Shown: one piece after another, positions 26,660 through 53,228 of the stretch
Numbering within the stretch: the stretch's first letter is position 1
Layout: the number at the start of each line of letters is the position of its first letter
Origin: a virus
Taxonomy: Duplodnaviria; Caudoviricetes
Virus record (IMG/VR): IMGVR_UViG_3300036964_000424
Span: 36,290-100,289 of that record
Length of the DNA stretch: 64,000 bases
Reading direction: 5' to 3' (one strand)
Program-made: the position numbers and the translations under genes
Notes under the pieces: model-generated
What the model was told of the DNA's origin: nothing
Database searches by the model: none
The model's input: the letters and a program-made list of their open reading frames with translations, nothing else

Positions 26660-27592
26660 TTATTTTGGTATAACGCAATATGTTGTTCCGGTTGCGCTAG
26701 TAAATGGATAGCGAGGTGTTTCCGCTTCGCCATATACATATAAATTTTTTATATTATCCGAAGTACAACAGAACATAGCTTTATGCACATTGATATAGGA
26801 TCCCGATGTAGTGCTGGCAGAAGTATCCAATTTAGTTAAATAGACAAATGCATTGTTATAAGCATAAGACATATAATATATATCATTATTTATATTAGTT
26901 AAGCGATCGAAATTCTGTGGATATACTACAGTCCAATCTGTTCCTGCATCAGTTGAATCGGTTGCGGGATTATATTTATAAATTTTATATACTGTTGAGA
27001 AATAGATTGAATCGTTATTTGATTCCAAATCAGCCCATATATTATACCCATCATTAGTAATTATTTCAAAATTCAAGTCATTAGACAGTGTAGATGCTGA
27101 TGTATCATATTTTTTTAAATGCCAAGTATAGCTCCCGCTTGTATGTGCATACCCATATGCTATATAAATATAATTTCCGTAACTACAGCTTCGCGCATAT
27201 TCACTATGATTATGAGTAAAACTTCGTTTAGTTCCCCAAGTATCCGTTAATGGAGTATATGGTATGATATCAATAGTAGTAGTACCCCCCGAATATAGAG
27301 CTGCAACTTCATATATCTTATTTCCGATAGTTTCAAGTCCATATATTGTTTTTCCTGAATTATATGAAGTTAAATTACACCAACTGCCAGTTATTGTATT
27401 TAAAGATTGCATCCCATAATCATTACCTCGATACTCGCCTTTTACATATACTTTATTATCATAAAATGTGTTAGCAACCGCTGATTTGAAAAAATCTACA
27501 GATGCATTATACATATCATTCAACTTGGTTACAACTGTTCCGTTTCTAATAAAATGATTCTCAAGCCGTAAACCTCCACCTCCTAATATCAT
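26660..27592 (-). CDS. Tail-associated beta-propeller (kelch-like) protein
   Basis: Repeating KIY/YIY..Y.P.TD.W blades; located in the fibre region. Confidence 0.5.
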   Translation of the reverse strand: MILGGGGLRLENHFIRNGTVVTKLNDMYNASVDFFKSAVANTFYDNKVYVKGEYRGNDYGMQSLNTITGSWCNLTSYNSGKTIYGLETIGNKIYEVAALYSGGTTTIDIIPYTPLTDTWGTKRSFTHNHSEYARSCSYGNYIYIAYGYAHTSGSYTWHLKKYDTSASTLSNDLNFEIITNDGYNIWADLESNNDSIYFSTVYKIYKYNPATDSTDAGTDWTVVYPQNFDRLTNINNDIYYMSYAYNNAFVYLTKLDTSASTTSGSYINVHKAMFCCTSDNIKNLYVYGEAETPRYPFTSATGTTYCVIPK

Positions 27593-27646
27593 AAATATTC
27601 CTTTCTATAACTATTTCGTACCATAAATAAAAACATCGCTGCATAT

Positions 27647-28282
27647 CTAGCTATAAGGAGAATTAGACGGTACAAAATCAGAAGTCCAGGCTGCCCCTTC
27701 AACTATTCTAAATTCATCCACACTTAATTTTCTCATTTCCCAGTTTTGCGAATAGCACCAGCATAATTCATGCTTTGTGGCATCATTTGGCATAGGCATA
27801 ACTTTTTCTGCGACTTTTTCCCCGTTTATAAACAAATAATATGATGTTGCTTTGTGGACAAGCGCCACATGCGTCCAATTCGTTGTATCAATCGCGGATG
27901 ACATTTCATTCCCAGAGGTATGATTTATAAAACATGATAATTTGCTATTGGTGACATTGAATAAGACATTACCGGTGTTATAAAGGTAGACGACACTCTT
28001 AGTAATGCCCATTATCCAACAGTCTATGGTAAAGTCTCCTTCTGTTAGATCAAAAAAACTATCATCGCCTGTATATTCAAGATAGTTTTCTTTGCCCCTC
28101 GTTGCAATTTGTGTCTGATAATAACCATTGAATTTACCGCCACTTGTATTGATAAGCGGATAGCCTCCATAAGTATGAAGTGTCCAGTTTCCTCCCATGG
28201 CATCGGAAAAATCCGAATCAAAGTGAAATAGTGCCTTAGTGCGTAAAGATGGCATCCTTCGCCCATTTGTTTCAATAATCAT
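27647..28282 (-). CDS. LamG/concanavalin A-like domain tail protein
   Basis: LFHFD, GDFTIDCWI, WTHVALV..YLFING, VDEFRI. Confidence 0.8.
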   Translation of the reverse strand: MIIETNGRRMPSLRTKALFHFDSDFSDAMGGNWTLHTYGGYPLINTSGGKFNGYYQTQIATRGKENYLEYTGDDSFFDLTEGDFTIDCWIMGITKSVVYLYNTGNVLFNVTNSKLSCFINHTSGNEMSSAIDTTNWTHVALVHKATSYYLFINGEKVAEKVMPMPNDATKHELCWCYSQNWEMRKLSVDEFRIVEGAAWTSDFVPSNSPYS

Positions 28283-28326
28283 ATCTATTCATTCCTTTTC
28301 TTAAATTATCCCCTTTTTTTGCCTAA

Positions 28327-30645
28327 TTATACAATAAACATTATATTTAGTGCTATATCTACTATAGGAGAGGCAGAAGAAGTATAATTAAATGTTAAAC
28401 TATCTGTACCCTGTGCAGTGCAATATACATCTGCATTGTAGAATGCATCTCTATTTGTTATGGTAGATGGTTCCGGCCCATATTGTACTATAGCTGAAGA
28501 AGTCATGTTATTCACTGTTACCGTTTGAGCTTTTGTAACCCAGCTTCCTGAAGATAGCACAACTTGCTGAGTATAGATATTTTTCGAAGCCATATTACTG
28601 CCAATAGATTTCCATCCTGACCAAACGGATGATGCTCCAACATATCTTTCTCTGACCCACGTTCTACCAGATGAATGAGACGTTGTAGAAACTGTTATTT
28701 CTTGTGCTATTTGCATTATAAAATGATCCGTATAAAAATTGACAATTTGTAACCATCCTTCAGCTGGTACTGTCCCATGCCCACTTTTTGAAATTGCCAC
28801 CGTATAATTATAAGTAAAAGTATCATCTATGTTCAAAGTATTTAAACTTTTGTTTTGAAATAGATTTTTATCTGTTGTCGCGCCAGTACCACCATTAGCA
28901 ACTGGCACAGGGCTATTTATTGTTGCCATGCTTCCCAACCCAAGATTATTTCTAGCGTCACTTGCAGTTGTTGCTCCTGTACCGCCATTTGGAATAGGTA
29001 CAGCCCCCGTTAAATTAGTTCCAGAAATTTTGCTTGATCCGTCCGATCCAGTATGCGCATGGGCAAAAAAGGATGTAAATAATTTCTTTATTTTCCCGAA
29101 TAAAACCGATAAGTTTTCACCGCTATTTATATTTAATAAAGTACCGGCTTCTATAAAAGCTACTGAACCGCTGCTAATATCTTCTCCTTTTAGCATAAAG
29201 GCACTAGCGTGATAATTGTCTAAAGTATCTGCATTTGCTGTTGTTACAACCGTTACCATATATTTAGCAGTAATAAGATCCCCTGCTACTGGAGCACTAA
29301 GAAAAGTGAAAGTGCCATTTGCAGGCGATGTTTCTTCCCAATCTTCTAATGCCCCTTGTGTTTGCAACTGTCCATTTAAATATACTTCTAAACTTCCGCT
29401 TGCATATTTCCCTTGGGATACGGTAAATGTTTTATTTACTCCATTTATCAAACCTGAAATTGCCCCATAAGTATCACCGGTGCCGCCAGTTTGATCAATA
29501 AAGAAACTATTAGATGACGGAATAGAATTTATTTTTACGGTTCCTGCTAATGTATCCCTTGTAATTGTAACATTACTCCCGCTTGTAAGTACTAATCCGT
29601 TTTGCAAATTAGGGTCTACCCCCAATAGTACATAGCTAGCAGTTGAAGGAGCAATAGATGAAGCGGCTACCGCTGTTCCTATAGTTACAGTAGATGCATT
29701 TGCATTTTCTGCAATTGTTATATTTTCTCCCGCAGTTAATAACCACTCACCTGTTATATTCGGGTGCAATGCTAGCATTACATAACTTCCACTGTTTGCC
29801 ACAGAAGAAGCCGATACCAGTGTATCGATAGTAATAGTAGAAGCGTTTGAATTTGTGGTAAATATTATATTACTTCCTGCAGTTAATAGCCATTCATTAT
29901 GCAAATCTGAATTTAGCCCTAATACGACATAGCTCCCTGTCGAAGGGGCAACTATTGAAGCTGATACTACATCGTATACAGATATTCCACTATCAGTTAT
30001 TACGCCGGAAGAACTTATAACAAGAAAATTGCCAACTTCCCCAGTAGCATATATTGTTGACGATGAAATAATTGAAGTTTTTGTTAATACGGAAGATGAA
30101 CTTATTCCGCTATCAATCAGTATACTGCAACCACTAATCATAGTAAAATTATTACTATTACCTGGTACAGTAATCTGTTCACCGGAGGATGATCCCATCC
30201 ATACCCACGATAAACCGTCATATACAAAAGATTGCGGCTTATTTTTAACTAGTTCCTTGCCTGTAAAATTTATTTTATTTCCATTTACATCAATTTTATT
30301 GAGCGCTTTAGTTCCTAAAGAATTTATATTTAATGTAACTGCGCCATCATTAGTTTTATCTAATATTAGGGTTATTTGCATATCTTTTTTATAAGCCGAT
30401 ATTGCAGACGCCGAAGAGGCATAAAAATTTTCACTAACATAAGAAGCAGAAACAATATTAACTCCAGAATATTGCGCAATTGAAGTTATAGATCCACTAA
30501 CAGATTCAGCCCAAGAATCTATAATACCCATATTAGACATGGGGCTGTTACCCGCTAAATCTTCCCTGAATGTTTGAAATAGCGCACTAGCATCTGTTAC
30601 AGCGTCATACATTTTTAATTTTAAATGATCAGTTGGAGTTGTCAT
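28327..30645 (-). CDS. Tail fibre protein with internal repeats
   Basis: N.GA.TLNIN.LG.K fibre motif, three ~50-aa SYV.L...LT.G.N repeats, two VP..NGGTGATT repeats, WSGW; Ser/Thr-rich. Confidence 0.8.
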   Translation of the reverse strand: MTTPTDHLKLKMYDAVTDASALFQTFREDLAGNSPMSNMGIIDSWAESVSGSITSIAQYSGVNIVSASYVSENFYASSASAISAYKKDMQITLILDKTNDGAVTLNINSLGTKALNKIDVNGNKINFTGKELVKNKPQSFVYDGLSWVWMGSSSGEQITVPGNSNNFTMISGCSILIDSGISSSSVLTKTSIISSSTIYATGEVGNFLVISSSGVITDSGISVYDVVSASIVAPSTGSYVVLGLNSDLHNEWLLTAGSNIIFTTNSNASTITIDTLVSASSVANSGSYVMLALHPNITGEWLLTAGENITIAENANASTVTIGTAVAASSIAPSTASYVLLGVDPNLQNGLVLTSGSNVTITRDTLAGTVKINSIPSSNSFFIDQTGGTGDTYGAISGLINGVNKTFTVSQGKYASGSLEVYLNGQLQTQGALEDWEETSPANGTFTFLSAPVAGDLITAKYMVTVVTTANADTLDNYHASAFMLKGEDISSGSVAFIEAGTLLNINSGENLSVLFGKIKKLFTSFFAHAHTGSDGSSKISGTNLTGAVPIPNGGTGATTASDARNNLGLGSMATINSPVPVANGGTGATTDKNLFQNKSLNTLNIDDTFTYNYTVAISKSGHGTVPAEGWLQIVNFYTDHFIMQIAQEITVSTTSHSSGRTWVRERYVGASSVWSGWKSIGSNMASKNIYTQQVVLSSGSWVTKAQTVTVNNMTSSAIVQYGPEPSTITNRDAFYNADVYCTAQGTDSLTFNYTSSASPIVDIALNIMFIV

Positions 30646-30700
30646 TAGGCATCATCCCGTTGTAATTTAAAATTTTTTATATCCATTTTATTTACCTCCC

Positions 30701-31741
30701 TTATACCACATATATAACGTTAACATCAATATCGGATATTGGAGATGCTGATGCATATTTAAAAGTTAAAGATCCAGAAGATTTACTATAGCAAAAAATA
30801 TCAGCACTCGCATAGTTAGAGCGATTTATCAATGTTGGTACAGGTTGGCATATAACAATTGCACTGGCGGTCATATTACTAATACTTACTACTTGTGAAG
30901 CGCTTGTCCAACTGCCAGAATACAAGGTAATATCTGTTGAATATATCGACACAACATCAAACATAGAAATTCCACTATCGGACATAATAGCATCATCGCC
31001 GCTACCGCTTATCATCAAAAAATTGCCATTATCCCCATAAGCAGGAATTGCTGATGCGGATACAAAATCATAAGTAGAAATCTCGCTGTCCGCTATACTT
31101 GAATATTCTCCCGACCCACTAATCATTAGCAAATTCCCATCTGTCCCGTAGGCAGTAATGGATGATGCCGAAATGTGGCTTAAAGCTATAGATGAAGTAG
31201 ATATTTCGCTATCAACTAAAACCCCGCATGGCGAAATCATAATTAAATTACTACTGTTTCCATTAATGCTAATTTGATCAGCAATATTTGCAGAAACTAG
31301 TACCCATGATGTTCCATTATATCTAAAAATATATTCTTTATATTTTTTTAATTCGCCATTTTCAAAATCGATCAAATTCCCTTCAAAGTTATATTTTTTA
31401 AGATATTTAGACCCAAAAGAGTTAATATTTAAAGCGACTGCACCGGTATTAGTCTCATTTAAAGTTAAAGAAATAAAAGCATTAGGATAATAGCCTTTTA
31501 ACTGTCCGGCAGTTGCTTCATAATAATTTGCACTAATATACATTGCCGCTACATGGATTAGTCTTGTCTCCATTAAAGAAACTAATGATGCACTAATATT
31601 TCCTGCCCATGTATCAATTATATTCATATTAGAAGTAGGAGAAATACCCGCCTGATCAGAACGGTATGCCAAAAATGTAGCACTTCCATCTGTTGTACTA
31701 TTGTATGTTTTTAAATTCAAATTAGGTGTATTCGAAGGCAT
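30701..31741 (-). CDS. Tail fibre protein, paralogue of 28327-30645
   Basis: Shares N-terminal (L.LK.Y...TD.SA.F) and C-terminal (SGSW..Q.V...NMT.SAIV..SLTF.Y.SASPI.DI) modules; three G..N..MIS..G..DS.IS repeats. Confidence 0.75.
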   Translation of the reverse strand: MPSNTPNLNLKTYNSTTDGSATFLAYRSDQAGISPTSNMNIIDTWAGNISASLVSLMETRLIHVAAMYISANYYEATAGQLKGYYPNAFISLTLNETNTGAVALNINSFGSKYLKKYNFEGNLIDFENGELKKYKEYIFRYNGTSWVLVSANIADQISINGNSSNLIMISPCGVLVDSEISTSSIALSHISASSITAYGTDGNLLMISGSGEYSSIADSEISTYDFVSASAIPAYGDNGNFLMISGSGDDAIMSDSGISMFDVVSIYSTDITLYSGSWTSASQVVSISNMTASAIVICQPVPTLINRSNYASADIFCYSKSSGSLTFKYASASPISDIDVNVIYVV

Positions 31742-31757
31742 AGAATATTTATCCTTT

Positions 31758-32704: not shown

Positions 32705-33067
32705 TTACGCCGATGCGTTACGCGATAAAATTACGAGCACGCCCTGCGAAGGTCGATATTCTTTCCCATCATAATCCAAAATAACAGGCTGATGGGTAAA
32801 CTTTCCTTGTAAATTTTGAGTGCTACTACCAGAAATAGTAACTCTAAACTGATTTGTTACAGATCCTGATTGCACTCCATTAATTGTCAATGTTGCATAT
32901 TGAGGATTTCCATATGGACTCATTACCCAATAGCAAGTAGTATTCGATAAGTCTAACGGGGCACTAGCACTATCATATACATCGAATGTTAATTCCTGAA
33001 GAGTTCCCCCAATAAACTGAAATGGTTCTAATGTATATGCTGATAAGCATTCAAAAGGATTTGACAA
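32705..33067 (-). CDS. BppU-like baseplate upper protein
   Basis: G....L.F.VYD....PLDL, V.I....TQ.L.GKF..Q; downstream of Tal. Confidence 0.55.
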   Translation of the reverse strand: MSNPFECLSAYTLEPFQFIGGTLQELTFDVYDSASAPLDLSNTTCYWVMSPYGNPQYATLTINGVQSGSVTNQFRVTISGSSTQNLQGKFTHQPVILDYDGKEYRPSQGVLVILSRNASA

Positions 33068-33338: not shown

Positions 33339-36300
33339 TTAACCACCATAAGATGATGCATATAATATTCCATACCTAAAATAAAGCGTATATTTTGACC
33401 CGCCAGGAGTTGCCAAAGTAAAAATACCTGTTACTCCTGCGCTTCCACCTGTATATACTGAATTATTTATATCTATTCTTTGAAAAGATGATGTGCCCGA
33501 AGATGTTATATTTGAATAAACCCTGTCAGTTACCGTAATAGATCCATCATAATAATTAGTTATATATCCTTTACTATTAACCCAATTTCGTGTTGCAACT
33601 TCGAAATAATTAGTTCCATCAAATGTATAGAATGTACCTCGTGTAGTAATATTCCCCGCACTATAAATAGTACCGTTCCCTGTCAATGTACCACAAGTTA
33701 ATGCCGCAGTCCCGCTAGTTCCAACCTTAAGGTTATAAGCTGTAATAACTGATTGCCCGCTATATGTATTCAACTTTATATCCGTATTAGAGTTTATTCT
33801 AAGCGAGCTATCATCCCAAGATATATTCTGGGCATTATCATTATAATTCACAAGCTGTGTAGCACTTATTCTACTCGATACATCTAATGTGCCAGTAACT
33901 TTTGAATTACTAGCCAAGGAAATATAATAAGGCGCCCCTCCAGATGCAATAGTTACATATTTATCAGTAATTATTGCAGTAGAAGCTGTCCCCATTAGTA
34001 AATAAGCATTTGGATTTACAGGGCTTATGAGCCTTCCATCCGCCGACAATATTCTAGAAGATGGGAAAGTGCCACTCGTAATTTTGCTAGCCGGCAAATC
34101 CCCGATTTGGGATTCCGCAATTGCTCCAGATATTTTACTGGCAACTAATGAACTAATTTGATCACTAGTTAAATATCCATTAATTTTATCCGCATATATT
34201 GTTCCGCCGAAAGTTGCCGATGTGGGAGTAATAGTCAATAAACCAAGCCTAATATAGCCATCGCTCCTGATATAATTTGGCGTAGCTAAATTATCTTGTA
34301 ATCTGTCAGATAAAATATTCCATCCACCAATTTGGCCTGAACTTGCAGTTATCTTCCCTACCAACGTTATATTTCCGGAGGAATCTAGAGATAATTGATC
34401 AGTCCATGTTCCTCCTATATTTTTTTGTATTTTTATGCCATTATTGGGATCTAAGAATATCTTATTATTTCCGGAAGATGTTGTTAAAGATAATGTAGCA
34501 TTTGTTAATGTAGCCCCGCTACTATCAAAGAGGAAAGAATTAGTTTCATTGGTCATATAAAGGTTATTGCCAATTAGCATTTTTCCTACTAGTGCATCAC
34601 CTACTACTCCAAAATATTTAATTCCATTGACAGTAACTTCGCCTAAAGCTAATTTAGATGTTTGCCAATTATTATTTGTAAAACAAATAATCCCATTATT
34701 CATCCATAATTGTTTGGGATCATAAACAGCAGGAGAATTTATAGTACTGGCACTTATTAAATTTCTAACTCTAATGCCTGTTTGGTCTATCAATACATTC
34801 TGGGAACTTCCGCTTATGACAGCATTTTTGGCTGCATCTAAACTCGATTCTATAAATTGACTAACATCATCTTGATAGTTTTTTGTCCAGCTAGACCATT
34901 GTTCAGAATTGAATTTTGTAGAAATTGCAGCATTATTACTATTATTTAATAAATCACTAAGCTGAAATCCGCTATTGTCTAATCTCAGTCTATTAGAAAA
35001 TGTAATATTGAAATCTGAAGGATCGTCATAGTTTATTTGAATTTCTAATAATGCCGGATATACATAAGTATGGCTTCCAGAAGAAGAAACATAATCTTCC
35101 TCATAAATATTCGATCCACCGCCTAAATCTAAAGTAACTATAGTTCCTAATTCTAGTTGATTTATGAAAACTTGATACTCTTGCAAAGCTAGGAAATTTA
35201 CAGAATTTATTGTAAATTCATATCGTGGTTGCGATATTTTAGCTAATACCTCAACTGCTTGATCATATAATTCCTGTGCTTGTTCTTGAATTTCCGCATT
35301 AGTCATAATAGCTGTTTGTATAAAGTTTTCATTCGTATAAGTAGATCCGAACATGAAATGAGATAGTTCGATCTTAGCCGCTTCTGAAAAATTAGTATCA
35401 AAACTTAGCGCAGTATTTATGTCTTTAAGAATAGCAGTAACCCCTGCAATTTGAGATTCTGTCAAACTTATAGCATAGGTTTTGTTATTTATTTCCAACT
35501 GTTTAGCCGAAAGTTGATTATTAATATCACTAATATCCAATCCTTGGGCTATTCTTGCAATTTTTATATTTTCTAAAGATTTATATTCTGACTGTAGATC
35601 AACTAATTCGGACTTTTGCGTTATTAATGTTTCATTATAATCTTGCAAATTAGTAAGATATGAAGCATAATTTGCTTGATTCGCGGCTACTAATGCTTCC
35701 CAATTGTTTAATGCCGTTATTAAAGATCCAGACATCCAGTTTGTATTCTCATAATAGGAGAAATCATAGATAGTATTAGTGCCTAAAGGATTTACAGAAT
35801 TTATAGAAAGATCGCCGCCTCCAACTACAGTTAAACTAGTAATGAGTTCGTCGGTAATTTCTTTTACTTCTACTTCTTTTATTAAATTATCATATGATAT
35901 AAATATATCCGAATTAGTCGTTGCATTTTCTACTGTATAAGCCGATATCGTTTTATTCAATGTATCAAATTTAAATATACATTGATAAGCTTCCGTAACA
36001 TCATTTAATAAAAAAGCGTACAATGTTGTATCATCGACATTAAAAGTTCTATATAATAATGCCAATGAAGTATCTACTGTTCCAATGCTCCAGTCAGGAA
36101 GATATTCTAAAATAATATTTAATAAGCCTGGGTTTTCTGATGTTCCTAGCGCATCATAAAATTGATATGTACCTTCAAAAGAAGTAATTTTTTTATAATT
36201 CATTATTGATTCTAAAGATTGGCATCTTACTTCTTTATATTTTTTTACGCCGTCCCCTATTTCAGTTACTTCGGTAATAAGAAAGCACATAATACCATCT

Positions 36301-36521
36301 ATTAGCACTAGCCTTTTAGGCTGTATTAAAGAATAATAAGGAGTTTCTACACCATTAATCATATAAGGGGCAATAAATTCCAATGTCGATAAAGCATTAA
36401 ATTTATAGCTAACTTTCCTGTCATAGACAGTGCCGAGAACCAATAATTGATCGCCAGACGGATTGCACAAGATTAGTGTAACATCATCTGCTTGCCCATA
36501 ATAATTAAAATTAGTTATCAA
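33339..36521 (-). CDS. Tail spike / baseplate hub (Tal-like) protein
   Basis: Follows Dit; L.L.NP, S.LEF, GGGDL.I.SVNP.GTN.IYDFSYY, central coiled coil, C-terminal beta-rich repeats (SGQIGGW.I). Confidence 0.8.
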   Translation of the reverse strand: MITNFNYYGQADDVTLILCNPSGDQLLVLGTVYDRKVSYKFNALSTLEFIAPYMINGVETPYYSLIQPKRLVLIDGIMCFLITEVTEIGDGVKKYKEVRCQSLESIMNYKKITSFEGTYQFYDALGTSENPGLLNIILEYLPDWSIGTVDTSLALLYRTFNVDDTTLYAFLLNDVTEAYQCIFKFDTLNKTISAYTVENATTNSDIFISYDNLIKEVEVKEITDELITSLTVVGGGDLSINSVNPLGTNTIYDFSYYENTNWMSGSLITALNNWEALVAANQANYASYLTNLQDYNETLITQKSELVDLQSEYKSLENIKIARIAQGLDISDINNQLSAKQLEINNKTYAISLTESQIAGVTAILKDINTALSFDTNFSEAAKIELSHFMFGSTYTNENFIQTAIMTNAEIQEQAQELYDQAVEVLAKISQPRYEFTINSVNFLALQEYQVFINQLELGTIVTLDLGGGSNIYEEDYVSSSGSHTYVYPALLEIQINYDDPSDFNITFSNRLRLDNSGFQLSDLLNNSNNAAISTKFNSEQWSSWTKNYQDDVSQFIESSLDAAKNAVISGSSQNVLIDQTGIRVRNLISASTINSPAVYDPKQLWMNNGIICFTNNNWQTSKLALGEVTVNGIKYFGVVGDALVGKMLIGNNLYMTNETNSFLFDSSGATLTNATLSLTTSSGNNKIFLDPNNGIKIQKNIGGTWTDQLSLDSSGNITLVGKITASSGQIGGWNILSDRLQDNLATPNYIRSDGYIRLGLLTITPTSATFGGTIYADKINGYLTSDQISSLVASKISGAIAESQIGDLPASKITSGTFPSSRILSADGRLISPVNPNAYLLMGTASTAIITDKYVTIASGGAPYYISLASNSKVTGTLDVSSRISATQLVNYNDNAQNISWDDSSLRINSNTDIKLNTYSGQSVITAYNLKVGTSGTAALTCGTLTGNGTIYSAGNITTRGTFYTFDGTNYFEVATRNWVNSKGYITNYYDGSITVTDRVYSNITSSGTSSFQRIDINNSVYTGGSAGVTGIFTLATPGGSKYTLYFRYGILYASSYGG

Positions 36522-45466: not shown

Positions 45467-46489
45467 TTACGTAACATTAATCATTACATAATCAACAAGG
45501 GAGCCACTAGGATATGTAACGTTGATTTGAATTGTCGTCGGATCCGGAATGGCACTTGCCGAAGTACTAATTAAACCCGTAGATCCAACTATAATGCCGG
45601 AACCTGAAGTGCCAACTCTTGCAAACGTACATTCTGATGTAATGTTAGTGTTATCATAAATGCCGCCTCTAATCCCTAAAACAGTTATTTGTGTTGATTG
45701 TGCTGTTGCATTCGGCCAATAAATCGTACTCGGTGTTGCAGCAATATTGGAATAAACTATTGATTCAGTGACAGGGATATATGAAATTTTTGCATAATAA
45801 TCACTTGTAGTGCAATCACTAGAAGTAGTAGCCAATGCTCTTCCCTCCAGCGTCTCATTGCTAACACCATCAGCAGCTAAGTCTAAAGTATAATTCCCTG
45901 CAATTTGGAACCGAGGGATATTGATTTGGAGATATTTCTTAACGGTTGTCTGATCACTGGATCTAATTTCGGCTATCAAAGTAAGATCTACAATTGAAGG
46001 CGGTTTTACAGTTTCTACCGTAATTTGGTTAGCCATTTTACTAGTAGTATATATTGCATTTACCATTTTATTATTAGCACCAGTAACTGTAATATTCTTA
46101 ACTAACGGCGTTACTGTCTGAACCGTTCCATCAGGTAAAAATACTTCCACATTTCCTATAGGCGTAGATGAAAGCACCCCTGATCCAGAAGACGATAAAA
46201 CTATACAATCCGTCTGTAAAACATTTACCGCCCCCGTTTGCACAGTACCACCAACGTTTAAGGCTAAAAATGTTTCAGCAAAGATTGCTTGACTAAGCGT
46301 AACCCCTAATTCTCGTGTGTGATAATAGCTATAAATCAACGGGTTATTAATACCCGCACGAACATCTTGGCTACTCATACTTAGATTAAAAGCTGAAGTA
46401 ATATTAGCCTTTCCATATGCAATGCCCGCTTTAGTTATCGGGTCTCTTATTACTGCATCTGCAACAGAAACTAAAAATTCATTTGTCAT
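45467..46489 (-). CDS. Major tail (tube) protein with C-terminal Ig-like domain
   Basis: FLVSVAD, DVRAG..N.L.Y.Y.H, QI.IPRFQ..G...L; strong AAGGAG RBS; positional fit. Confidence 0.78.
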   Translation of the reverse strand: MTNEFLVSVADAVIRDPITKAGIAYGKANITSAFNLSMSSQDVRAGINNPLIYSYYHTRELGVTLSQAIFAETFLALNVGGTVQTGAVNVLQTDCIVLSSSGSGVLSSTPIGNVEVFLPDGTVQTVTPLVKNITVTGANNKMVNAIYTTSKMANQITVETVKPPSIVDLTLIAEIRSSDQTTVKKYLQINIPRFQIAGNYTLDLAADGVSNETLEGRALATTSSDCTTSDYYAKISYIPVTESIVYSNIAATPSTIYWPNATAQSTQITVLGIRGGIYDNTNITSECTFARVGTSGSGIIVGSTGLISTSASAIPDPTTIQINVTYPSGSLVDYVMINVT

Positions 46490-47315: not shown

Positions 47316-47893
47316 TATCCAATCCAGTTTGACATAACTACCATATTTCCCCTATAGGGGATATTCCCAGCCATGGAAGTCACCATTTTACAACGAGTAC
47401 TCGCCCTTGAATCAAAATGTAATCTCCCCAAATATCCAATTTCAGCCCCATTAAAAACTTCTATGATTTGCTGTGAAAGCACTTGCAATCTTGATTGATA
47501 ATTACTTAATGCCGATATTGAATAATGGGTATATATTTCAAATCCCATGAATATTCTGCCATAAACATAGTTTATAGGAACTAGCTCAATAGGTGTTATT
47601 CTTAAAATAGAAATCTTTTCGTTTATAGATTGATCCATACCGAAATCAAAGAATATACGAAATCTAGAATAATCAGGATCCAGCTCCCCATTATTAACCA
47701 AATCACCTTTTTCTTTTGCAGTTAAATTGGGATGGGCGCTATCATTTTTATACGCATCTTTATCATTATATTTTAGTAGTTTCCATATTAATTCATTATT
47801 ATCCATCATATATTTTACGCAATTATAAGATATCAAAGGATAATTTTCATATTTATTATAAGAATCTGCCCTAATATCTGTCACATTTACCAC
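47315..47893 (-). CDS. Putative tail terminator/completion protein
   Basis: N.LIWKLLKY...DA; position in the neck module. Confidence 0.55.
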   Translation of the reverse strand: MVNVTDIRADSYNKYENYPLISYNCVKYMMDNNELIWKLLKYNDKDAYKNDSAHPNLTAKEKGDLVNNGELDPDYSRFRIFFDFGMDQSINEKISILRITPIELVPINYVYGRIFMGFEIYTHYSISALSNYQSRLQVLSQQIIEVFNGAEIGYLGRLHFDSRASTRCKMVTSMAGNIPYRGNMVVMSNWIG

Positions 47894-48924
47894 CTTCCAA
47901 GCAGCGATATCTCAAATATTCTGCTTCCTGAACTACCAGAACATAAAATATTCAAAGGATAATCTAAATACATGCCATTATTATCAACTTTAAATGTATT
48001 CCCATCAATTACCGCAAAATCATAATATTGGGACGGCACGTTATTATCATATACTGTAAAAATAAAGCTACCTGAAGAGATGCTACTTCCGCTATAATAA
48101 TGGACATCAAATATTTCACTTTCCCCTTCTAATATATTCCCATCGCTAGGGGTAATCACTATATTATTTATAGCAGAAGAACTACCAGAAGTAGTATAAA
48201 GATACCTATCCGCAATCCCATTTATTAGATCATCTACGCTTTCATTAACATAATCTATTTCCATTTTTAATTCTAATAATCTGGAGCTATTATTATCATA
48301 AGTATCAGCATTTAAATAATTTCTTATGCCACCTCCAACAATTCTATAAGCAATCCAATTCGATGTGTTCCCGAAAATAAAACGCCGGTTTTCCGTTATT
48401 GTATTGGTTCTATCATTTTGTTGCGCATAAACTTTTATTTTTCCATTCGGCAAGACTAAATCATCAGAAGATACGTTATTATCCACACCTGTTACTTCAT
48501 ATTCTATGGCACAAGGCTCATAATAAATTGTAGAACCAGAAACAGACATCCATCTTAAAACATTATTGCATCTACGCACTGTCAAGGAGCTAGTTAATGT
48601 TTTTATATTTTCGAGATTCCATCCAATCCATATATTATTAGAAAATCTATACTTTTTCCCGACAAAAACAGTATGATTGATATCAGGGAATAAAATTCTT
48701 TTGAAATCATCTCCTAACATTGTTTGTGTAAGAACATCTAACGCCGACGTTATCCGCACTTTAATAAATTTAAAAAGTTCACTTCCAAAAGTTACTTCTT
48801 CTTCTATATTATATATATCAGAACTAACTTCGAATAAATCTGTAACTGCTGCTTGAAAATGCTCAATCAATATCGAGGAGGCGCTCAAGTTACTGTCGGG
48901 TTCAGGATAATATTTATACCCCAT
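47887..48924 (-). CDS. Putative head closure/stopper protein with Ig-like C-terminus
   Basis: DDFKRILF, RRCNN.LRW, N...DD..NGIAD; position in the neck module. Confidence 0.6.
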   Translation of the reverse strand: MGYKYYPEPDSNLSASSILIEHFQAAVTDLFEVSSDIYNIEEEVTFGSELFKFIKVRITSALDVLTQTMLGDDFKRILFPDINHTVFVGKKYRFSNNIWIGWNLENIKTLTSSLTVRRCNNVLRWMSVSGSTIYYEPCAIEYEVTGVDNNVSSDDLVLPNGKIKVYAQQNDRTNTITENRRFIFGNTSNWIAYRIVGGGIRNYLNADTYDNNSSRLLELKMEIDYVNESVDDLINGIADRYLYTTSGSSSAINNIVITPSDGNILEGESEIFDVHYYSGSSISSGSFIFTVYDNNVPSQYYDFAVIDGNTFKVDNNGMYLDYPLNILCSGSSGSRIFEISLLGRW

Positions 48925-48942: not shown

Positions 48943-49419
48943 CTAAACAGTAGAATCAAATACTTGATTATACCAGTTTTTAAAATTATTCCTTTTATAC
49001 GCATAATTTATTAAAGCTTGGCTTATCTCTTCCTGAAGTGAGGAATAGTATTCTTGCTTTGCTTTCAAATTCTGCGCGGCAGAAAATGTTTTAAAATCCC
49101 TATCGCTTATAACATTAGAAATTTGTACTAGATCCTTGATTGTCTTCTCAAGCCAATATTTTGTCATTATTAGTGACAACATAATTTTATTGGGCAAATT
49201 CAAGTCTTCTGTAAAATAGCCAACACTACTTCCAGAACTTTGCACATATTCTAAAGATTGATCTGCGTATTCGGAAAATTCATTAATTGCAAATAGCAAC
49301 CATGGTTCAATATATACACTTAAGACAGAAGATCCTGAAGTAGAATAAATTACATCAAGCTTATGATCTCTTATTCGTGACAAAAATAAATCAGCTATTT
49401 CAGTACTTTGTGTAGGCAA
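48943..49419 (-). CDS. Putative head-tail adaptor
   Basis: T...EI.DLFL..I.D..L, F..DL....ILS..M..YWL, DFK..S.A.NL; TTG start after AGGAGG (track start 49473). Confidence 0.6.
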   Translation of the reverse strand: MPTQSTEIADLFLSRIRDHKLDVIYSTSGSSVLSVYIEPWLLFAINEFSEYADQSLEYVQSSGSSVGYFTEDLNLPNKIMLSLIMTKYWLEKTIKDLVQISNVISDRDFKTFSAAQNLKAKQEYYSSLQEEISQALINYAYKRNNFKNWYNQVFDSTV

Positions 49420-49443
49420 ATTCCCCTCCTTTCTATTGTTATT

Positions 49444-49483
49444 ATAGCAAAGAATACCACAGTAACGTGGCATCCTTTGCTAT
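49444..49483 (-). terminator. Hairpin/terminator directly downstream of the head-module glycosyltransferase
   Basis: ATAGCAAAG-AATACCAC..GTGGCATC-CTTTGCTAT, with G-U pairs on the - strand. Confidence 0.55.
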
Positions 49484-49487
49484 TATA

Positions 49488-50561
49488 TTAATATCTATAA
49501 GGCTTTTCTATTAATTTTTGATATAAGTCAATACGTTCTTGAACATGTAAATCAATATCTTGGGTTAGCGCAAATTTAAAGCCAACATCTTCAGCCTTTT
49601 CCCTATATAATGCAATATTATCTATTACTTCCGAAATAGCATCTTCCCAATTTTCTTTGCCATTTTCTGTAAATTTTCCGTACTCTGCAAGATGATTATA
49701 ATTGGGATAATTGGATGCTATAAAAGGAACACGCAATGCCAAGCATTCTAAAGGCTTGATTTGGCTTCTCCTTTTATCATATTCTCCCGCTAATGGTATT
49801 GTGCATATATCAAGACTTTTTATAAGGGCAGGGTATTGTTCTGATGGCACGAATGCACAAAACATTTTTTTCTTATTAGAAATATCTAATTCATCATATA
49901 TTTTTTTATCCCCAGTAATAAGGATTTTCACATTTGGATATTTCCTGCATATCTTCCTATAAGCCATCATAATCCCAGACCATTCAAAAGAATAACGGTG
50001 CGATAAGCTGCCAGTCCATCCAATCCAAATTTCATCTTTGGAATGCGGGAATAAAGGCTGTGTTACATTTCTATATCGATCCATTGCTAAATGATTATGA
50101 ATTAGGTAAGTATCATTCCACTCAGCCCAATCATCACAAAGAGCTTGTGATACAGTTTGCAATCCTTTTGACATATGAACGCCCCATTCCAATTGAACTT
50201 TAGGGGGAGGGTTAATTTTAATGGTAGATACTTCTCCAGATATATCTTGATGCTTTATTTCTCCAAATTCCCAGAAACTATAAGCCGGATTGTCTTTATT
50301 CAATTTTCTATATGCATCATCGAATATTACGCCTATTGCTTTGCCTCTTACTTTCCAATACATCATCATAGTCAAAGTATCACTGAATAAATTTCTTTCA
50401 ACCATGATTATATCTGCATCTTTGCAAAGTTGCTGAACCTCGGGCGTATTTTTTATGAAGTCGTTTACATGAATGCATTTAGAAGTATGAACACCCGTTT
50501 TATTAATAGCTACAGAAGGATTTATGCAGTTGTGAAAACTGCAATTAAATTCTTGCGGCAT
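49488..50561 (-). CDS. GT-B fold (GT4-like) glycosyltransferase inside the head-neck module
   Basis: IFDD, TVSQAL, IGWTGS.SH, Y...I..LDI...PL...YD..RS.IK.LE..A..VP.IAS; likely start at ATT/ATC 50591/50588. Confidence 0.85.
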   Translation of the reverse strand: MPQEFNCSFHNCINPSVAINKTGVHTSKCIHVNDFIKNTPEVQQLCKDADIIMVERNLFSDTLTMMMYWKVRGKAIGVIFDDAYRKLNKDNPAYSFWEFGEIKHQDISGEVSTIKINPPPKVQLEWGVHMSKGLQTVSQALCDDWAEWNDTYLIHNHLAMDRYRNVTQPLFPHSKDEIWIGWTGSLSHRYSFEWSGIMMAYRKICRKYPNVKILITGDKKIYDELDISNKKKMFCAFVPSEQYPALIKSLDICTIPLAGEYDKRRSQIKPLECLALRVPFIASNYPNYNHLAEYGKFTENGKENWEDAISEVIDNIALYREKAEDVGFKFALTQDIDLHVQERIDLYQKLIEKPYRY

Positions 50562-50603
50562 ATCGGCATATACATAAAGTACAAAGATAATATACCTCCT
50601 ATT

Positions 50604-51329: not shown

Positions 51330-51376
51330 TTTTCTCCTCGCGCTATAGCGCTGTTTTTAATGTAACTATTCAATCT

Positions 51377-51417
51377 TGGGAACTACCACTCGGATAAAGC
51401 CAAGGTGGTAGCTCCCA
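51377..51417 (-). promoter_or_regulatory. Second stem-loop in the post-capsid intergenic region
   Basis: TGGGAACTACCAC..GTGGTAGCTCCCA 13-bp stem. Confidence 0.5.
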
Positions 51418-51440
51418 CCCATTATATAATTTAGCAAGAA

Positions 51441-51473
51441 CAAGATAGTAGGCTATTAAAACCTACTATCTTG
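51441..51473 (-). terminator. Terminator after the major capsid gene
   Basis: CAAGATAGTAGG-9 nt-CCTACTATCTTG followed by TTCTT on the - strand. Confidence 0.7.
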
Positions 51474-51487
51474 ATCAATATTATAGA

Positions 51488-52621
51488 TTATAGCGTAATA
51501 AGTGCTCCGACTGCACTAGTGTGCACGCCGATTTTCCAGAATTTTGTAAGCGTACTGGTCTGAACAAGATTAGCATTAGCATAAACATCTGAAGTATTTG
51601 ACATCATCGTCCCGCCAATAACACATTTGACAATCTTATCTGTGCTAGGGGCAATAATCCACAAATAATTATCATTTATAATCGTGCCAAAGGGCGTTTC
51701 CCAATTCGCAACTTGCGGAATTTCAAGTGTCTCAAGCCCAGCTATCTCTCGAACATAACCTAGTCTAACAAACGGGCTTTCAATATCATAACGATAATTG
51801 CTGCCGCTTGGAACCACTTTTGATAGGGCAACTTTAGTTCCTAGTAAAATAGGTTTTGCTCCGCCACTAAATGCCTGAACTCTTGCGGCCAATTGCATCA
51901 TAGATTCCATTGAATAGCCAGTAACCTTTAAAGCAGTTGCCGAGCCACTTGCGGGATTGGTTTCCAAGGCTGACATTCCTGCAGCAAAGGCGTTATAAAT
52001 ATCTTTGTACATTTCGGTTTCAATTGATCGCAAGCATTTAGTAACAAATACACCCAATGATTCTTGACCAGCCAAAACACGTAACAATGATACATAAGTT
52101 GAAACCATATGCGCTTCAGGATTTACAGTTACCTGCCGTTCGAATCCTTTATGCAGCTCAGCTTCTCGCATTCCTAGTTTTCCGCTCTTTGTAACGGGGA
52201 ACAAATCACGAGACCGAATATCAAAAATAGCCGTTTCGCCCCATCCAACAGTACGAACTTCGCAGAAAGCAGAAGTTCCATCAATGATTGTTTGCGGTAA
52301 GACTGCATCAATTAGCTGTGTCTCAATATTCCCAATTGCCCAACTAACCATGGGATGCGTAGCCATTCTTTCAGGAGGCATAGATGTAACATCAATGCCA
52401 GACAATTTAGATACTTCTTTAAGAATAAGTTTTCCTATAGCATCTTCTTTTTGCGCAAATGAAATCGGATTGCCATTTCTATCGGTAGTAGCATAGGGAT
52501 ATTTTTTCGTCCCTGTTTCTGACCGATAATGGTTCCAGAAATCAACAAAATTTTCAAATAAACTTAATGATTCTTCATCTCTACAAAAAGAGATAACACT
52601 TTTTGGTAATCTATTAGTCAT
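51488..52621 (-). CDS. Major capsid protein
   Basis: 377 aa; ID..LP, F.EVR.V.WGE...F, G...AL.KV; follows protease and decoration genes, strong RBS, terminator downstream. Confidence 0.8.
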   Translation of the reverse strand: MTNRLPKSVISFCRDEESLSLFENFVDFWNHYRSETGTKKYPYATTDRNGNPISFAQKEDAIGKLILKEVSKLSGIDVTSMPPERMATHPMVSWAIGNIETQLIDAVLPQTIIDGTSAFCEVRTVGWGETAIFDIRSRDLFPVTKSGKLGMREAELHKGFERQVTVNPEAHMVSTYVSLLRVLAGQESLGVFVTKCLRSIETEMYKDIYNAFAAGMSALETNPASGSATALKVTGYSMESMMQLAARVQAFSGGAKPILLGTKVALSKVVPSGSNYRYDIESPFVRLGYVREIAGLETLEIPQVANWETPFGTIINDNYLWIIAPSTDKIVKCVIGGTMMSNTSDVYANANLVQTSTLTKFWKIGVHTSAVGALITL

Positions 52622-52685
52622 ATTTTATTTTCTCCTTTTTTTTCTATTATAATTAAATTATTAGCCAAGTTAAAACATGACCAAG

Positions 52686-53228
52686 TTAAGCTTTATAAGC
52701 TTGGCATTCGAAAGCGGTTAATCTTCCCACTCCAATTTCACTGCCACTAGCGCAAGGAATATAGGTTGTCTTGATATATTTCAGACATTCCCCTGTAGAA
52801 GGAGCAGAAGCCCATTTCCATTTATAATTGCCGGCAGGATCCGGAACAGCATAAGCCTGAGGAGTTGCAGAATCAAATGCTTCTGCAGTCAAAGTAATAA
52901 TATCAACATTTGGCTCAAGTCTGAATGCTGTAAAGACTTTACAAGCTGAAGTATAGAAATCCTGAATATTTCCTAAACCACTATAAATATTGTCGCCGGC
53001 CGTTGCAAAAGATATTTCCGGTTCACAAGCCATCCACAATCGTGTTTGACTTGCACTGGAAGGCGCAGTACACAACCAAACCTCTCCTTCTCCAGTAACC
53101 CCAGTTTTTTGATCCAAGACAAAGATATTGCCATTGTCAATAGGGGATGCACTAATTGCAGGGCGAAGCCGTGCGTCAACATTTTTAGCTTCGACTTTAT
53201 TAAGTATTAAAACTGCATGTTTTGCCAT
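52686..53228 (-). CDS. Head decoration/cement protein
   Basis: IDNG..F.L......EGEVW, F.....K...AF.L...DI; lies between protease and capsid. Confidence 0.6.
   Translation of the reverse strand: MAKHAVLILNKVEAKNVDARLRPAISASPIDNGNIFVLDQKTGVTGEGEVWLCTAPSSASQTRLWMACEPEISFATAGDNIYSGLGNIQDFYTSACKVFTAFRLEPNVDIITLTAEAFDSATPQAYAVPDPAGNYKWKWASAPSTGECLKYIKTTYIPCASGSEIGVGRLTAFECQAYKA

What the first reader, a model, noticed from the sequence alone, without database searches (positions are those of the whole stretch)
26660..53228. S-[G/A]-S tripeptide saturates exposed virion proteins: candidate sequon for a phage-encoded virion O-glycosylation system
Seen (hand count of SGS/SAS): tail fibre 28327 has 11, fibre 30701 has 9, neck protein 47887 has 7, Tal 4, major tail 4, kelch-like 26660 has 4, BppU-like 3, decoration 3, capsid 2 and adaptor 2, about 49 sites in ~4,000 aa. 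Internal or non-virion proteins almost lack it: portal 0, Dit 0, tape measure 1 in 1466 aa, and only about 3 in the whole + strand arm, two of them in family-conserved motifs. The sites are encoded by mixed codons in unrelated folds, including loop-like inserts (NPASGSATA, QSSGSSV, CSGSSGSR), so this is not DNA duplication; TGS/TAS/NAS variants accompany them. Established: some actinobacteriophages O-glycosylate capsid and tail proteins using their own glycosyltransferases. Inference: this phage, with 8 GT(-like) genes, has seeded a short acceptor sequon across its whole surface to build a dense glycan coat. I know of no described virion-wide sequon of this kind.
Basis: partly seen in the sequence, partly recalled or inferred. 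Interest (0 to 1): 0.92.

Follow-up and report, generated by a model that had tools for sequence, protein, structure and literature searches.

The report
Ser-Gly/Ala-Ser tag on phage virion proteins
The exposed tail, neck, fibre and capsid-decoration proteins of this uncultured 100-kb SPbeta-like phage and its whole clade carry the ordered tripeptide Ser-Gly/Ala-Ser four to fourteen times more often than chance. The excess is found only in lineages that also encode a conserved set of nine soluble sugar-transferase genes, so it is probably a sugar-attachment tag, though no chemistry shows this yet.

Summary
In the minus-strand virion module (26660-53228; 8,333 aa), SGS (31 observed, 5.2 expected) is the top outlier of all 8,000 tripeptides, and SAS (20 vs 5.8) is also high. 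No other SxS is enriched, and the rest of the genome sits at expectation.

- **Robustness:** the excess survives 6-residue block shuffles (51 vs 16) and depends on residue order.
- **Clade trait:** every relative down to 38-40% capsid identity shows it, only in structural genes. 120 YomX-like homologues carry 839 sites against 58 expected.
- **Lineages without it:** the sister lineage (G10/L052) and the outgroups (PMBT24, MT835481, L054) have the same folds but no excess.
- **Enzymes:** four of four enriched genomes that cover the region carry the same GT set plus a novel GT-B. G10 lacks it at both syntenic slots, and the complete PMBT24 record has no GT2 or GT-B match and no annotated GT.
- **Structure:** sites lie at hairpin tips and loops. 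The centre must be small (G or A, not N or D), Thr substitutes poorly, and charged neighbours are excluded.

My best reading is an O-glycosylation acceptor motif (about 0.5). A structural turn is the main rival (about 0.25). Glycosylation is not shown, and the major capsid protein is not enriched.

This scan has flagged similar S/T-G-S excesses on other, unrelated phage DNA.

The parts
9296..10423 (+). RfbH-like PLP enzyme (DegT family). It is the first gene of the sugar/GT cluster and suggests a 3,6-dideoxyhexose or amino-sugar precursor.
   Evidence: Pfam DegT_DnrJ_EryC1 1.7e-50. NCBIfam RfbH 2.6e-104, 349 bits, below the equivalog cut-off. Homologues in G3 (71% identity) and G9.
10416..11111 (+). 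Short RmlD/epimerase-like NAD(P) reductase
   Evidence: Pfam RmlD_sub_bind and Epimerase. Conserved in G3 and G9.
11128..11832 (+). GT2 glycosyltransferase (GT-A fold), soluble
   Evidence: Pfam PF00535 2.2e-14. Homologues in G2, G3 and G9, absent from G10, PMBT24 and MT835481. No TM segment.
11813..12460 (+). DUF5672 protein (GT-like)
   Evidence: Pfam PF18922 2.9e-19. Conserved in G2, G3 and G9.
13729..14589 (+). GT11-like (fucosyltransferase family) glycosyltransferase
   Evidence: Pfam PF01531 5.8e-8. Conserved in G2, G3 and G9.
14651..15487 (+). GT17-like glycosyltransferase
   Evidence: Pfam PF04724 6.5e-27. Conserved in G2, G3 and G9. Distant homologues in cyanophages.
15444..16217 (+). 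Conserved cluster protein without a Pfam hit, probably a GT
   Evidence: 51-76% identical in G2 and G3. 32-36% identical to cyanophage genes annotated as glycosyltransferase.
16285..16950 (+). GT25-like glycosyltransferase
   Evidence: Pfam PF01755 3.7e-11. Conserved in G2, G3 and G9.
16914..17771 (+). Conserved cluster protein of unknown family
   Evidence: No Pfam or NCBIfam hit. 30-38% identical in G2, G3 and G9, always just before the last GT2.
17768..18595 (+). GT2 glycosyltransferase, last gene of the plus-arm cluster
   Evidence: Pfam PF00535 1.5e-27. Conserved in G2, G3 and G9.
49488..50561 (-). Novel GT-B (GT4-type) glycosyltransferase in the late head-neck operon. It is the candidate priming protein O-glycosyltransferase.
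   Evidence: Pfam Glyco_trans_1_4 5.4e-8, C-terminal half only. Orthologues sit at the end of the GT cluster in G2 (46%), G3 (40%) and G9 (35%). They sit in the head operon only in the window's subclade. Absent from G10. No PDB or cultured-phage homologue.
52686..53228 (-). Capsid decoration/cement protein with 3 sites (residues 26-28, 58-60, 161-163)
   Evidence: AF2 pLDDT 78, all sites in loops or hairpin turns. Best fold matches are the cement proteins of T1, FCWL1, TW1 and Pam3. Orthogroup 11/1.2. Two sites are invariant in the clade and unrelated residues in the outgroups.
47887..48924 (-). YomX-like neck/connector protein with a C-terminal Ig-like domain, 7 sites
   Evidence: AF2 pLDDT 83.5, sites at hairpin turns and the inter-domain linker. 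Fold matches lambda gpV-like tube plus Ig domain. 120 homologues carry 839 sites against 58 expected.
48943..49473 (-). 176-aa connector-region protein ('adaptor'), 2 sites
   Evidence: Orthogroup 9/0.62. The SGS at alignment column 69 is invariant in all 8 enriched sequences and is NQE or SPE in the outgroups.
45467..46489 (-). Major tail (tube) protein, 4 sites, 3 of them in the C-terminal part
   Evidence: Matches the PMBT24 major tail protein and YomU_Tube in relatives. Orthogroup 13/2.05.
33339..36521 (-). Tal-like minor tail protein (YomG_N), 4 sites
   Evidence: phrog_6211 2e-94. Orthogroup 13/4.1.
32705..33067 (-). 120-aa distal tail protein, 3 sites
   Evidence: 3 observed vs 0.19 expected. 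Orthogroup 4/0.68.
30701..31741 (-). Fibre protein (346 aa), 9 sites, paralogue of the 772-aa fibre
   Evidence: 9/1.48. Paralogy and internal repeat.
28327..30645 (-). Fibre protein (772 aa), 11 sites
   Evidence: 11/2.5. Orthogroup 37/8.1.
26660..27592 (-).
   Evidence: 4/0.29. No family hit.
51488..52621 (-). Major capsid protein (YonB-like). It has 2 sites here but is NOT enriched across the clade.
   Evidence: 2/0.40. Orthogroup 3/1.63. The sites are not conserved.

Best explanation
S-[G/A]-S, with the extended consensus [T/V/I]-S-[G/A]-S-[P/S/A/G]-[V/T/I] and no charged neighbours, is an acceptor motif for serine O-glycosylation of virion proteins.

Proposed mechanism:
1. The proteins are modified in the cytoplasm by the phage's own soluble machinery.
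2. A clade-specific GT-B enzyme (49488-50561) primes serines displayed on beta-hairpin tips and loops of the decoration, YomX-like neck, connector, tail-tube, Tal, Dit and fibre proteins.
3. The eight other GT(-like) enzymes (11128-18595) extend the glycan. The RfbH-like and reductase enzymes supply an unusual deoxy sugar.
4. The result is a glycan coat on the outward-facing parts of the tail, neck, fibres and capsid decoration.

What is shown: the motif, its selection, its location in loops, its restriction to exposed virion proteins, and its co-distribution with the GT set.

What is inferred: that a sugar is attached, which enzyme primes, and what the coat does (protection or masking).
For: 1. 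The signal is specific and ordered. SGS is the top tripeptide of 8,000 and the excess survives 6-residue block shuffles.
2. It is restricted to structural bins in G0, G2, G3, G9, G11, G1 and G4, with non-structural genes at expectation.
3. Within virions it marks exposed proteins (fibres 37/8.1, tube 13/2.1, YomX 20/1.5, connector 9/0.6, decoration 11/1.2). It does not mark the tape measure (3/4.8), portal (0/2.1) or lysis proteins.
4. It is under selection. Motif serines are more conserved than other serines in the same proteins (0.86 vs 0.60, 0.53 vs 0.35, 0.39 vs 0.25). 11 of 38 sites are kept at 30% overall identity, yet most sites are lineage-specific gains. 0/19 and 0/15 sites are kept in the outgroups.
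5. The same folds in the sister lineage and outgroups show no excess: PMBT24 3/4.9, MT835481 6/5.1, L052 3/4.1, G10 near expectation in seven of eight structural and non-structural bins, with one at 6/1.9.
6. The GT set plus GT-B is conserved in all four enriched genomes that cover the region, at 28-76% identity. It is absent from G10 at both syntenic slots. In the complete PMBT24 record no GT2 domain or homologue of any window GT gene was found and none is annotated in the ~91 kb viewed.
7. In the window's subclade the GT-B has moved into the late head-neck operon, among its putative substrates.
8. No GT has a TM segment, so the system is cytoplasmic and has no lipid-carrier export genes.
9. 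The residue preferences fit an enzyme pocket better than turn geometry. The centre is G 5.1x and A 3.3x, but N 0.72x and D 0.89x. Thr variants reach only about 1.4x. Charged residues at -1/+1 are 3% against 22% background.
10. There is precedent. S-A-S-S-A-S is the O-glucosylation signature of Lentilactobacillus S-layer proteins (PMC10221546). Phage-encoded virion glycosylation exists in mycobacteriophages (Freeman 2023, as cited in PMC12894461 and PMC12691614).
Against: - No chemical evidence of any modification exists, and the phage is uncultured.
- The co-occurrence of motif and GT set can be explained by one event on one short branch. The tree gives only 14% support for enriched monophyly, and one change suffices.
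- The sites sit exactly where tight turns occur, and outgroups use D/N-G there, so a structural role is plausible.
- The major capsid protein, the largest surface, is not enriched.
- The GT-B has no detectable similarity to any characterised protein O-GT.
- The GTs could instead act on cell-wall polymers or another acceptor.
- Other notes of this scan report a similar motif in phages whose cultured relatives lack the local sugar island (unverified).
Confidence: 0.5

Rival explanations
1. Structural turn code. S-G/A-S is simply this clade's preferred way of building tight beta-hairpin or beta-arch corners in extracellular, beta-rich virion proteins. It was fixed by ancestry and stability and has nothing to do with the GT genes.
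For: - 9 of 10 sites mapped on the two AF2 models lie at hairpin turns or loops flanked by beta-branched residues.
- Outgroups have classical D/N-G turns at the same columns.
- Fibre paralogues and internal repeats carry the motif at repeat corners.
- Other notes of this scan reached a turn reading for similar motifs in other phages.
Against: - The same folds in the sister lineage and outgroups do not use it.
- The centre favours small residues (G, A), not alpha-L-prone ones. N is 0.72x and D 0.89x, and G<->A swaps occur at the same site.
- Thr is a poor substitute for either Ser.
- N-G and D-G turns are not depleted, so deamidation avoidance is not the driver.
- Cytoplasmic proteins of the same phages lack it.
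- Most sites are independent lineage-specific gains while the density is maintained.
Confidence: 0.25
2. The motif is a tag for a different serine-directed process, such as phosphorylation, acylation, cross-linking, or binding by a phage or host factor. The GT cluster would serve another purpose, for example modification of a host wall polymer or lysogenic conversion.
For: - Ser specificity and exclusion of charged neighbours point to recognition by some reader.
- The link to the GTs rests on one phylogenetic event.
- The phage encodes two tyrosine recombinases, so it may be temperate, and conversion genes are common in temperate phages.
Against: - No kinase, acyltransferase or dehydratase is conserved in the clade-specific gene set. 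The GT set is the only large clade-specific enzyme block.
- The GTs have no TM segment or flippase partner.
- The GT set is conserved over deep divergence, unlike typical morons.
- The GT-B moved into the late virion operon.
Confidence: 0.12
3. The GT cluster glycosylates hypermodified phage DNA, and the motif is unrelated.
For: The plus arm has a ThyX-like gene, a dNMP kinase, a 5'-nucleotidase, dUTPase, RNR and several DNA methyltransferases.
Against: - The ThyX-like gene is found only in G0 and G3, not in G2 or G9, so no base-hydroxymethylation step is conserved with the GTs.
- From my own knowledge, known DNA sugar modifications use far fewer glycosyltransferases than the nine here plus a deoxysugar pathway.
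- This reading does not explain the motif.
Confidence: 0.05

Closest known systems
Mycobacteriophage virion O-glycosylation by phage-encoded glycosyltransferases (Freeman et al. 2023, Cell Host Microbe; cited in PMC12894461 and PMC12691614; the paper itself was not readable here)
   Same: A tailed phage carries its own GT genes that are thought to decorate structural proteins in the cytoplasm. The coat affects how the particle is recognised.
   Different: - The host group differs: this is an SPbeta-like, low-GC phage, not an actinophage.
- This phage has nine GT(-like) genes plus a deoxysugar pathway.
- The putative acceptors are a short ordered tripeptide scattered over hairpin loops of about ten different proteins.
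- The major capsid protein is not marked.
- No chemistry is available here.
S-A-S-S-A-S O-glucosylation signature of Lentilactobacillus buchneri/kefiri S-layer proteins (Anzengruber 2014, via review PMC10221546)
   Same: Serines separated by a small residue (Ala) are the experimentally shown O-glycosylation sites in a Gram-positive surface protein.
   Different: That case is a single hexapeptide per protein, in a secreted host protein, and that review names no enzyme. Here the unit is a single S-[G/A]-S, Gly is preferred, and many sites occur per protein on cytoplasmically assembled virions.
GtfA/GtfB priming of serine-rich-repeat adhesins
   Same: A GT-B (GT4-class) enzyme primes serines in S-x-S contexts in the cytoplasm, after which further GTs extend the glycan.
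   Different: - The phage GT-B shows no sequence similarity to any solved structure.
- No GtfB-like partner was identified.
- The substrates are folded beta-rich proteins with isolated sites, not long disordered repeats.
- There is no accessory Sec export.
Virus-encoded cytoplasmic glycosylation in giant viruses, such as the chlorovirus major capsid protein with non-canonical sequons and the mimivirus fibril glycosylation gene clusters (from my own knowledge)
   Same: A virus brings a multi-gene soluble GT and sugar-nucleotide toolkit and uses its own acceptor rules on virion proteins.
   Different: Those are eukaryotic viruses. Chlorovirus glycans are N-linked, and their sequons and enzymes are unrelated to these.
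Tight beta-hairpin turns ending in Gly (the structural alternative)
   Same: The sites lie at strand-turn-strand corners with a central Gly.
   Different: Ala is accepted while Asn and Asp are not. Both flanks must be Ser. The motif is clade-specific and virion-specific.

Membership tests
Phage-encoded virion glycosylation (mycobacteriophage type) | The phage genome encodes glycosyltransferases | tested here: met
   Pfam: GT2 twice, DUF5672, GT11, GT17, GT25 and Glyco_trans_1_4.
Phage-encoded virion glycosylation (mycobacteriophage type) | Glycans demonstrated on virion proteins by glycostain or MS | not testable with these tools
   The phage is an uncultured metagenomic contig and no proteomic data are available.
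Phage-encoded virion glycosylation (mycobacteriophage type) | The presence of the GT genes tracks the modified state of the structural proteins | tested here: inconclusive
   The motif excess and GT set co-occur in G0, G2, G3 and G9. Both are absent in G10 (at the syntenic slots) and PMBT24. One evolutionary change explains the pattern.
GtfA/GtfB-type serine O-GlcNAc priming system | GT4-family GT-B priming enzyme homologous to GtfA | tested here: not met
   There is only a generic Glyco_trans_1_4 hit on the C-terminal half. Neither the single sequence nor the 53-sequence profile hits anything in the PDB. No NCBIfam hit.
GtfA/GtfB-type serine O-GlcNAc priming system | Substrate with long serine-rich dipeptide repeats exported by an accessory Sec system | tested here: not met
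   The sites are isolated tripeptides in folded proteins. I saw no SecA2/SecY2-type accessory secretion genes among the genes I annotated, but I did not search for them specifically.
S-A-S-type O-glycosylation signature (Lentilactobacillus S-layer) | Serines flanking a small residue serve as acceptor | tested here: inconclusive
   The sequence pattern matches (S-A-S 3.3x, S-G-S 5.1x). Acceptor function is not testable here.
Structural tight-turn motif | Located at beta-hairpin or loop positions | tested here: met
   9 of 10 sites in two AF2 models are in turns or loops and 1 is at a helix N-cap.
Structural tight-turn motif | Central position favours alpha-L-prone residues (G, N, D) | tested here: not met
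   G 5.07x and A 3.25x, but N 0.72x and D 0.89x.
Structural tight-turn motif | Shared by homologous folds irrespective of lineage | tested here: not met
   The sister lineage and outgroups with orthologous proteins show SGS 1.07x and SAS 1.06x.

The most novel reading that the evidence does not exclude
S-[G/A]-S is a true sequon of a phage-encoded, wholly cytoplasmic protein O-glycosylation pathway. A novel GT-B recognises serines on folded beta-hairpin tips. Eight further soluble GTs then build a complex glycan containing a deoxyhexose, giving the tail, neck, fibres and capsid decoration a sugar coat. Together with the similar Ser-small-Ser excesses that this scan has flagged in unrelated phage lineages, it would point to a widespread, convergently evolved 'virion glyco-code' in tailed phages that has gone unnoticed.
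Probability: 0.4. Interest if true: 0.85.

Novelty: new variant of a known kind. Interest (0 to 1): 0.74.

Why it matters
Virion glycosylation by phage enzymes is established only for a few actinobacteriophages. As far as I could find, no short acceptor motif has been described for any phage.

If S-[G/A]-S is such a motif, it would have several consequences:
- Glycosylated phage proteins could be predicted from sequence alone.
- It would define a new family of protein O-glycosyltransferases that act on folded hairpin loops.
- It would offer a compact tag-plus-enzyme pair for glyco-engineering proteins or phage particles.
- It would give a handle on how phages mask or protect their surfaces from proteases, adsorption, receptors and immune recognition.

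Even if the motif proves structural, a clade-wide, virion-only rewriting of turn sequences is an unusual evolutionary signal that needs an explanation.

Tried and rejected
- **Composition artefact:** rejected by whole-protein and 6-40-residue block shuffles and by order specificity.
- **General SxS or Ser-rich patches:** rejected, because only G and A centres are enriched.
- **Universal property of these folds or of tail fibres:** rejected by PMBT24, MT835481, L052/G10 and L054.
- **Avoidance of deamidation-prone N-G/D-G turns (thermoadaptation):** rejected, because NG and DG are at expectation.
- **'The head-operon GT-B is dispensable because L004-L013 lack it there':** I first inferred this. 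I withdrew it when orthologues turned up at the end of the GT clusters of G2, G3 and G9.
- **G001 as a counter-example (no GT2 hit):** rejected, because that contig does not cover the GT slot.
- **Independent lineages carrying the same GT-B:** none found. There were no hits in 50,697 phage records, only the same clade in IMG/VR, and 98 tight metagenome clusters. The other GTs have only distant single homologues in cyanophages and jumbo phages.
- **Characterising the GT-B by sequence against the PDB:** nothing found.
- **Searching four more long motif-rich contigs (L072-L075) for the GT-B:** those records are not held.
- **Reading Freeman 2023 and Anzengruber 2014:** neither is held, so I relied on citing papers.

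Full report
**What the window is.** The window is 64 kb of a single 100,289-bp phage contig with about 32% GC and two divergent arms.
- The plus arm (97-24772) holds replication and nucleotide-metabolism genes, several DNA methyltransferases and a 9-kb sugar/GT cluster.
- The minus arm holds an SPbeta-type structural module. Its parts are terminase, portal, a YonD-like protein, a decoration protein, the YonB-like major capsid protein, a GT-B, a connector-region protein, a YomX-like protein, YomW and YomV-like proteins, the YomU-like tube, lysis genes, the tape measure, Dit, a YomG-like Tal and the fibres.
- The nearest annotated phages are Enterocloster phages such as PMBT24, at only about 34% capsid identity. 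Closer relatives exist only as metagenome contigs.

- In the 8,333 residues encoded by 26660-53228, SGS (31 observed, 5.15 expected, z=11.4) is the strongest outlier among all tripeptides. SAS (20 vs 5.78) is also far out.
- No other S-x-S is enriched, and the other 11,450 residues of the window are at expectation.
- Shuffling within blocks of 40, 20, 10 or even 6 residues leaves 51 observed against 11-16 expected.
- The order matters: SGS 31 vs SSG 16 and GSS 11.
- Caveats: the two fibres are paralogues and one has an internal repeat seen by eye, so some fibre sites share ancestry.

**It is a clade trait confined to virion genes.**
- All thirteen related loci around the capsid gene (82% down to 40% identity) show SGS 3.7-6.7x. 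SAS is 2.5-5.4x in ten of them and about 1.5x in L012/L013. There is no excess of STS, SVS or SNS, and SSS is raised in only one locus (L011, 9/3.9).
- In the large contigs G2 (143 kb), G3 (160 kb) and G9 (93 kb), and in the partial contigs G11, G1 and G4, the excess sits only in structural bins. G9 is binned into an archaeal MAG but is clearly this phage type. Replication and accessory genes are at expectation.
- 120 database homologues of the YomX-like protein carry 839 sites against 58 expected. Every member has at least two.
- Summed over four genomes, the enriched proteins are the fibres, Tal, Dit, the tube, the YomX-like protein, the 176-aa connector protein and the decoration protein. 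The tape measure, portal, major capsid protein, putative scaffold-region proteins, lysis proteins and the GT-B itself are not enriched.

**Evolutionary behaviour.**
- Some sites are invariant throughout the enriched clade. Examples are two SAS in the decoration protein, one SGS in the connector protein and one in the tube. The orthologous columns in the outgroups hold unrelated residues.
- Other sites turn over between subclades, with G/A exchange at the same site.
- Motif serines are consistently better conserved than other serines of the same proteins.
- 29% of sites are kept at 30% overall identity, roughly ten times what three independent positions would give.
- Most sites are lineage-specific while the density is maintained.
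- 0/19 and 0/15 sites are shared with the two outgroups.
- This is the pattern expected of a short functional tag under density selection.

**Where the sites sit.**
- The decoration protein has pLDDT 78, and its best fold matches are the capsid cement proteins of T1, FCWL1, TW1 and Pam3. All three of its sites are in loops or a hairpin turn.
- The YomX-like protein has pLDDT 83.5 and a tube-like N-domain plus an Ig-like C-domain. Five site clusters are at hairpin turns or in the disordered inter-domain linker, and one is at a helix N-cap.
- The pooled logo of 205 sites is [T/V/I]-S-[G/A]-S-[P/S/A/G]-[V/T/I]. Charged residues at -1/+1 are 3% against a 22% background.

**The enzymes.** The plus-arm cluster encodes the following:
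- an RfbH-like PLP enzyme and a short RmlD-like reductase;
- GT2, DUF5672, GT11 and GT17 proteins;
- a conserved protein related to cyanophage GTs;
- GT25, a conserved unknown protein and a second GT2.

A further GT-B gene lies between the capsid-proximal 241-aa gene and the connector gene in the late operon. None of these has a transmembrane segment.

All nine GT(-like) genes have orthologues in G2, G3 and G9. The sugar-precursor genes are found in G3 and G9. In G2, G3 and G9 the GT-B sits at the end of the GT cluster. Only in the window's subclade has it moved into the head-neck operon.

The GT-B family is tight and known only from metagenomes. It has no relative in 50,697 phage records or in the PDB, even with a 53-sequence profile.

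**Co-occurrence test.**
- PMBT24 is complete at 99,962 bp. Searching the whole record found no GT2 domain, tblastn over its first ~93 kb found no homologue of any window GT gene, and no GT is annotated there. It has no motif excess.
- More telling is a lineage found through the decoration-protein family (L052, G10). It is as close to the window as G2, G3 and G9 (capsid 42-45% identity), yet it has no excess.
- The 81.8-kb G10 contig covers both places where the enzymes sit in the enriched genomes. Its PolB is followed within about 2 kb of small unrelated ORFs by the 5'-nucleotidase and RNR, so the whole cluster is missing. No gene lies between its connector and 241-aa genes, and no GT-B homologue was found anywhere on the contig.
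- In a capsid+portal+terminase tree, G10/L052 joins the enriched lineages in a 100%-supported clade, as sister or in a trichotomy. Enriched monophyly has only 14% support.
- Motif and enzymes therefore appear or disappear together on one very short branch. That is tight, but it may be a single event, so it is not statistical proof.
- I found no counter-example. G1 and G4 do not cover the slot, and four further long contigs could not be searched.

**Weighing the structural rival.** The sites are at turns, and the outgroups use D/N-G there, so a turn role is natural. Four results argue that turn geometry alone is not the cause:
- The centre accepts Ala (3.3x) but not Asn (0.72x) or Asp (0.89x).
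- Thr replaces either Ser poorly.
- N-G and D-G are not avoided.
- Orthologous folds in the sister lineage and outgroups, and cytoplasmic proteins of the same phages, lack the motif.

Lineages also differ in tolerance. G9 uses SGS only (SAS 6/4.2), while G2 uses both equally. A co-evolving reader would produce this.

Other notes of this scan describe similar [S/T]-G-S excesses in unrelated phages, with mixed conclusions. One reports cultured relatives that lack the local sugar island (unverified). I therefore keep the structural reading at about 0.25.

**Comparison with what is known.**
- Serines separated by Ala are proven O-glucosylation sites in Lentilactobacillus S-layer proteins (S-A-S-S-A-S; PMC10221546).
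- GT4-type GT-B enzymes prime S-x-S repeats in Gram-positive adhesins (my own knowledge).
- Phage-encoded virion glycosylation exists in mycobacteriophages (Freeman 2023, cited in PMC12894461 and PMC12691614).
- This case differs in the phage and host group, in the size of the GT set, in using a dispersed tripeptide on many folded proteins, and in the GT-B having no recognisable relative.

**Verdict.**
- It is most likely an acceptor motif for phage-encoded O-glycosylation (0.5).
- It is a new variant of a known kind.
- The decisive test is mass spectrometry of a motif-bearing protein co-expressed with the GT-B.

Noticed in passing
G10 = IMGVR_UViG_3300032883_000188; L061:7942-10725 (-) and L061:12222-13199 (-): The motif-free sister lineage carries a different candidate glycosylation module. 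It is a 927-aa methyltransferase-GT2-TPR-GT4 fusion, two genes away from a 325-aa collagen-triple-helix protein. This may be a collagen-like fibre glycosylated in the manner of BclA or mimivirus fibrils.
   Followed up: partly
L043/L045-L049 (BPGB01000006.1, 92,997 bp): A contig deposited in a 'Candidatus Woesearchaeota' MAG is a near-complete phage genome of this SPbeta-like clade, with a full structural module, the GT set and PolB. It is almost certainly mis-binned.
   Followed up: partly
window 49488-50561 vs L033:14584-15681 and L034:14404-15516: The GT-B gene has relocated. In G2, G3 and G9 it sits at the end of the early/middle GT cluster. In the window's subclade it sits inside the late head-neck operon.
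   Followed up: yes
window 28327-30645 and 30701-31741: Two adjacent fibre genes are paralogues that share their N-terminal ~280 aa and C-terminal ~84 aa (41-45% identity). The shorter one has a ~37-aa internal repeat, seen by eye, carrying SAS...SGS.
   Followed up: partly
G9 (L045-L049) vs G2 (L024-L031) structural modules: Lineages differ in centre-residue preference. G9 has SGS 31/5.6 but SAS only 6/4.2, whereas G2 has SGS 34/8.1 and SAS 37/8.0.
   Followed up: no
window 12844-13725: A D12-class (Dam-like) DNA adenine methyltransferase sits in the middle of the GT cluster. It has no counterpart in the G2 or G9 clusters.
   Followed up: no
genome coordinates 825-1589 (-) = L050:825-1589, outside the window: A 254-aa ORF with no family hit carries 5 S[GA]S against 1.1 expected. 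It lies at the far end of the minus arm. A partial homologue lies near the collagen-like gene of G10.
   Followed up: no
L052:8909-9442 and 9463-10005; L053: The motif-free L052 lineage has two tandem paralogues of the decoration protein upstream of the capsid gene.
   Followed up: no
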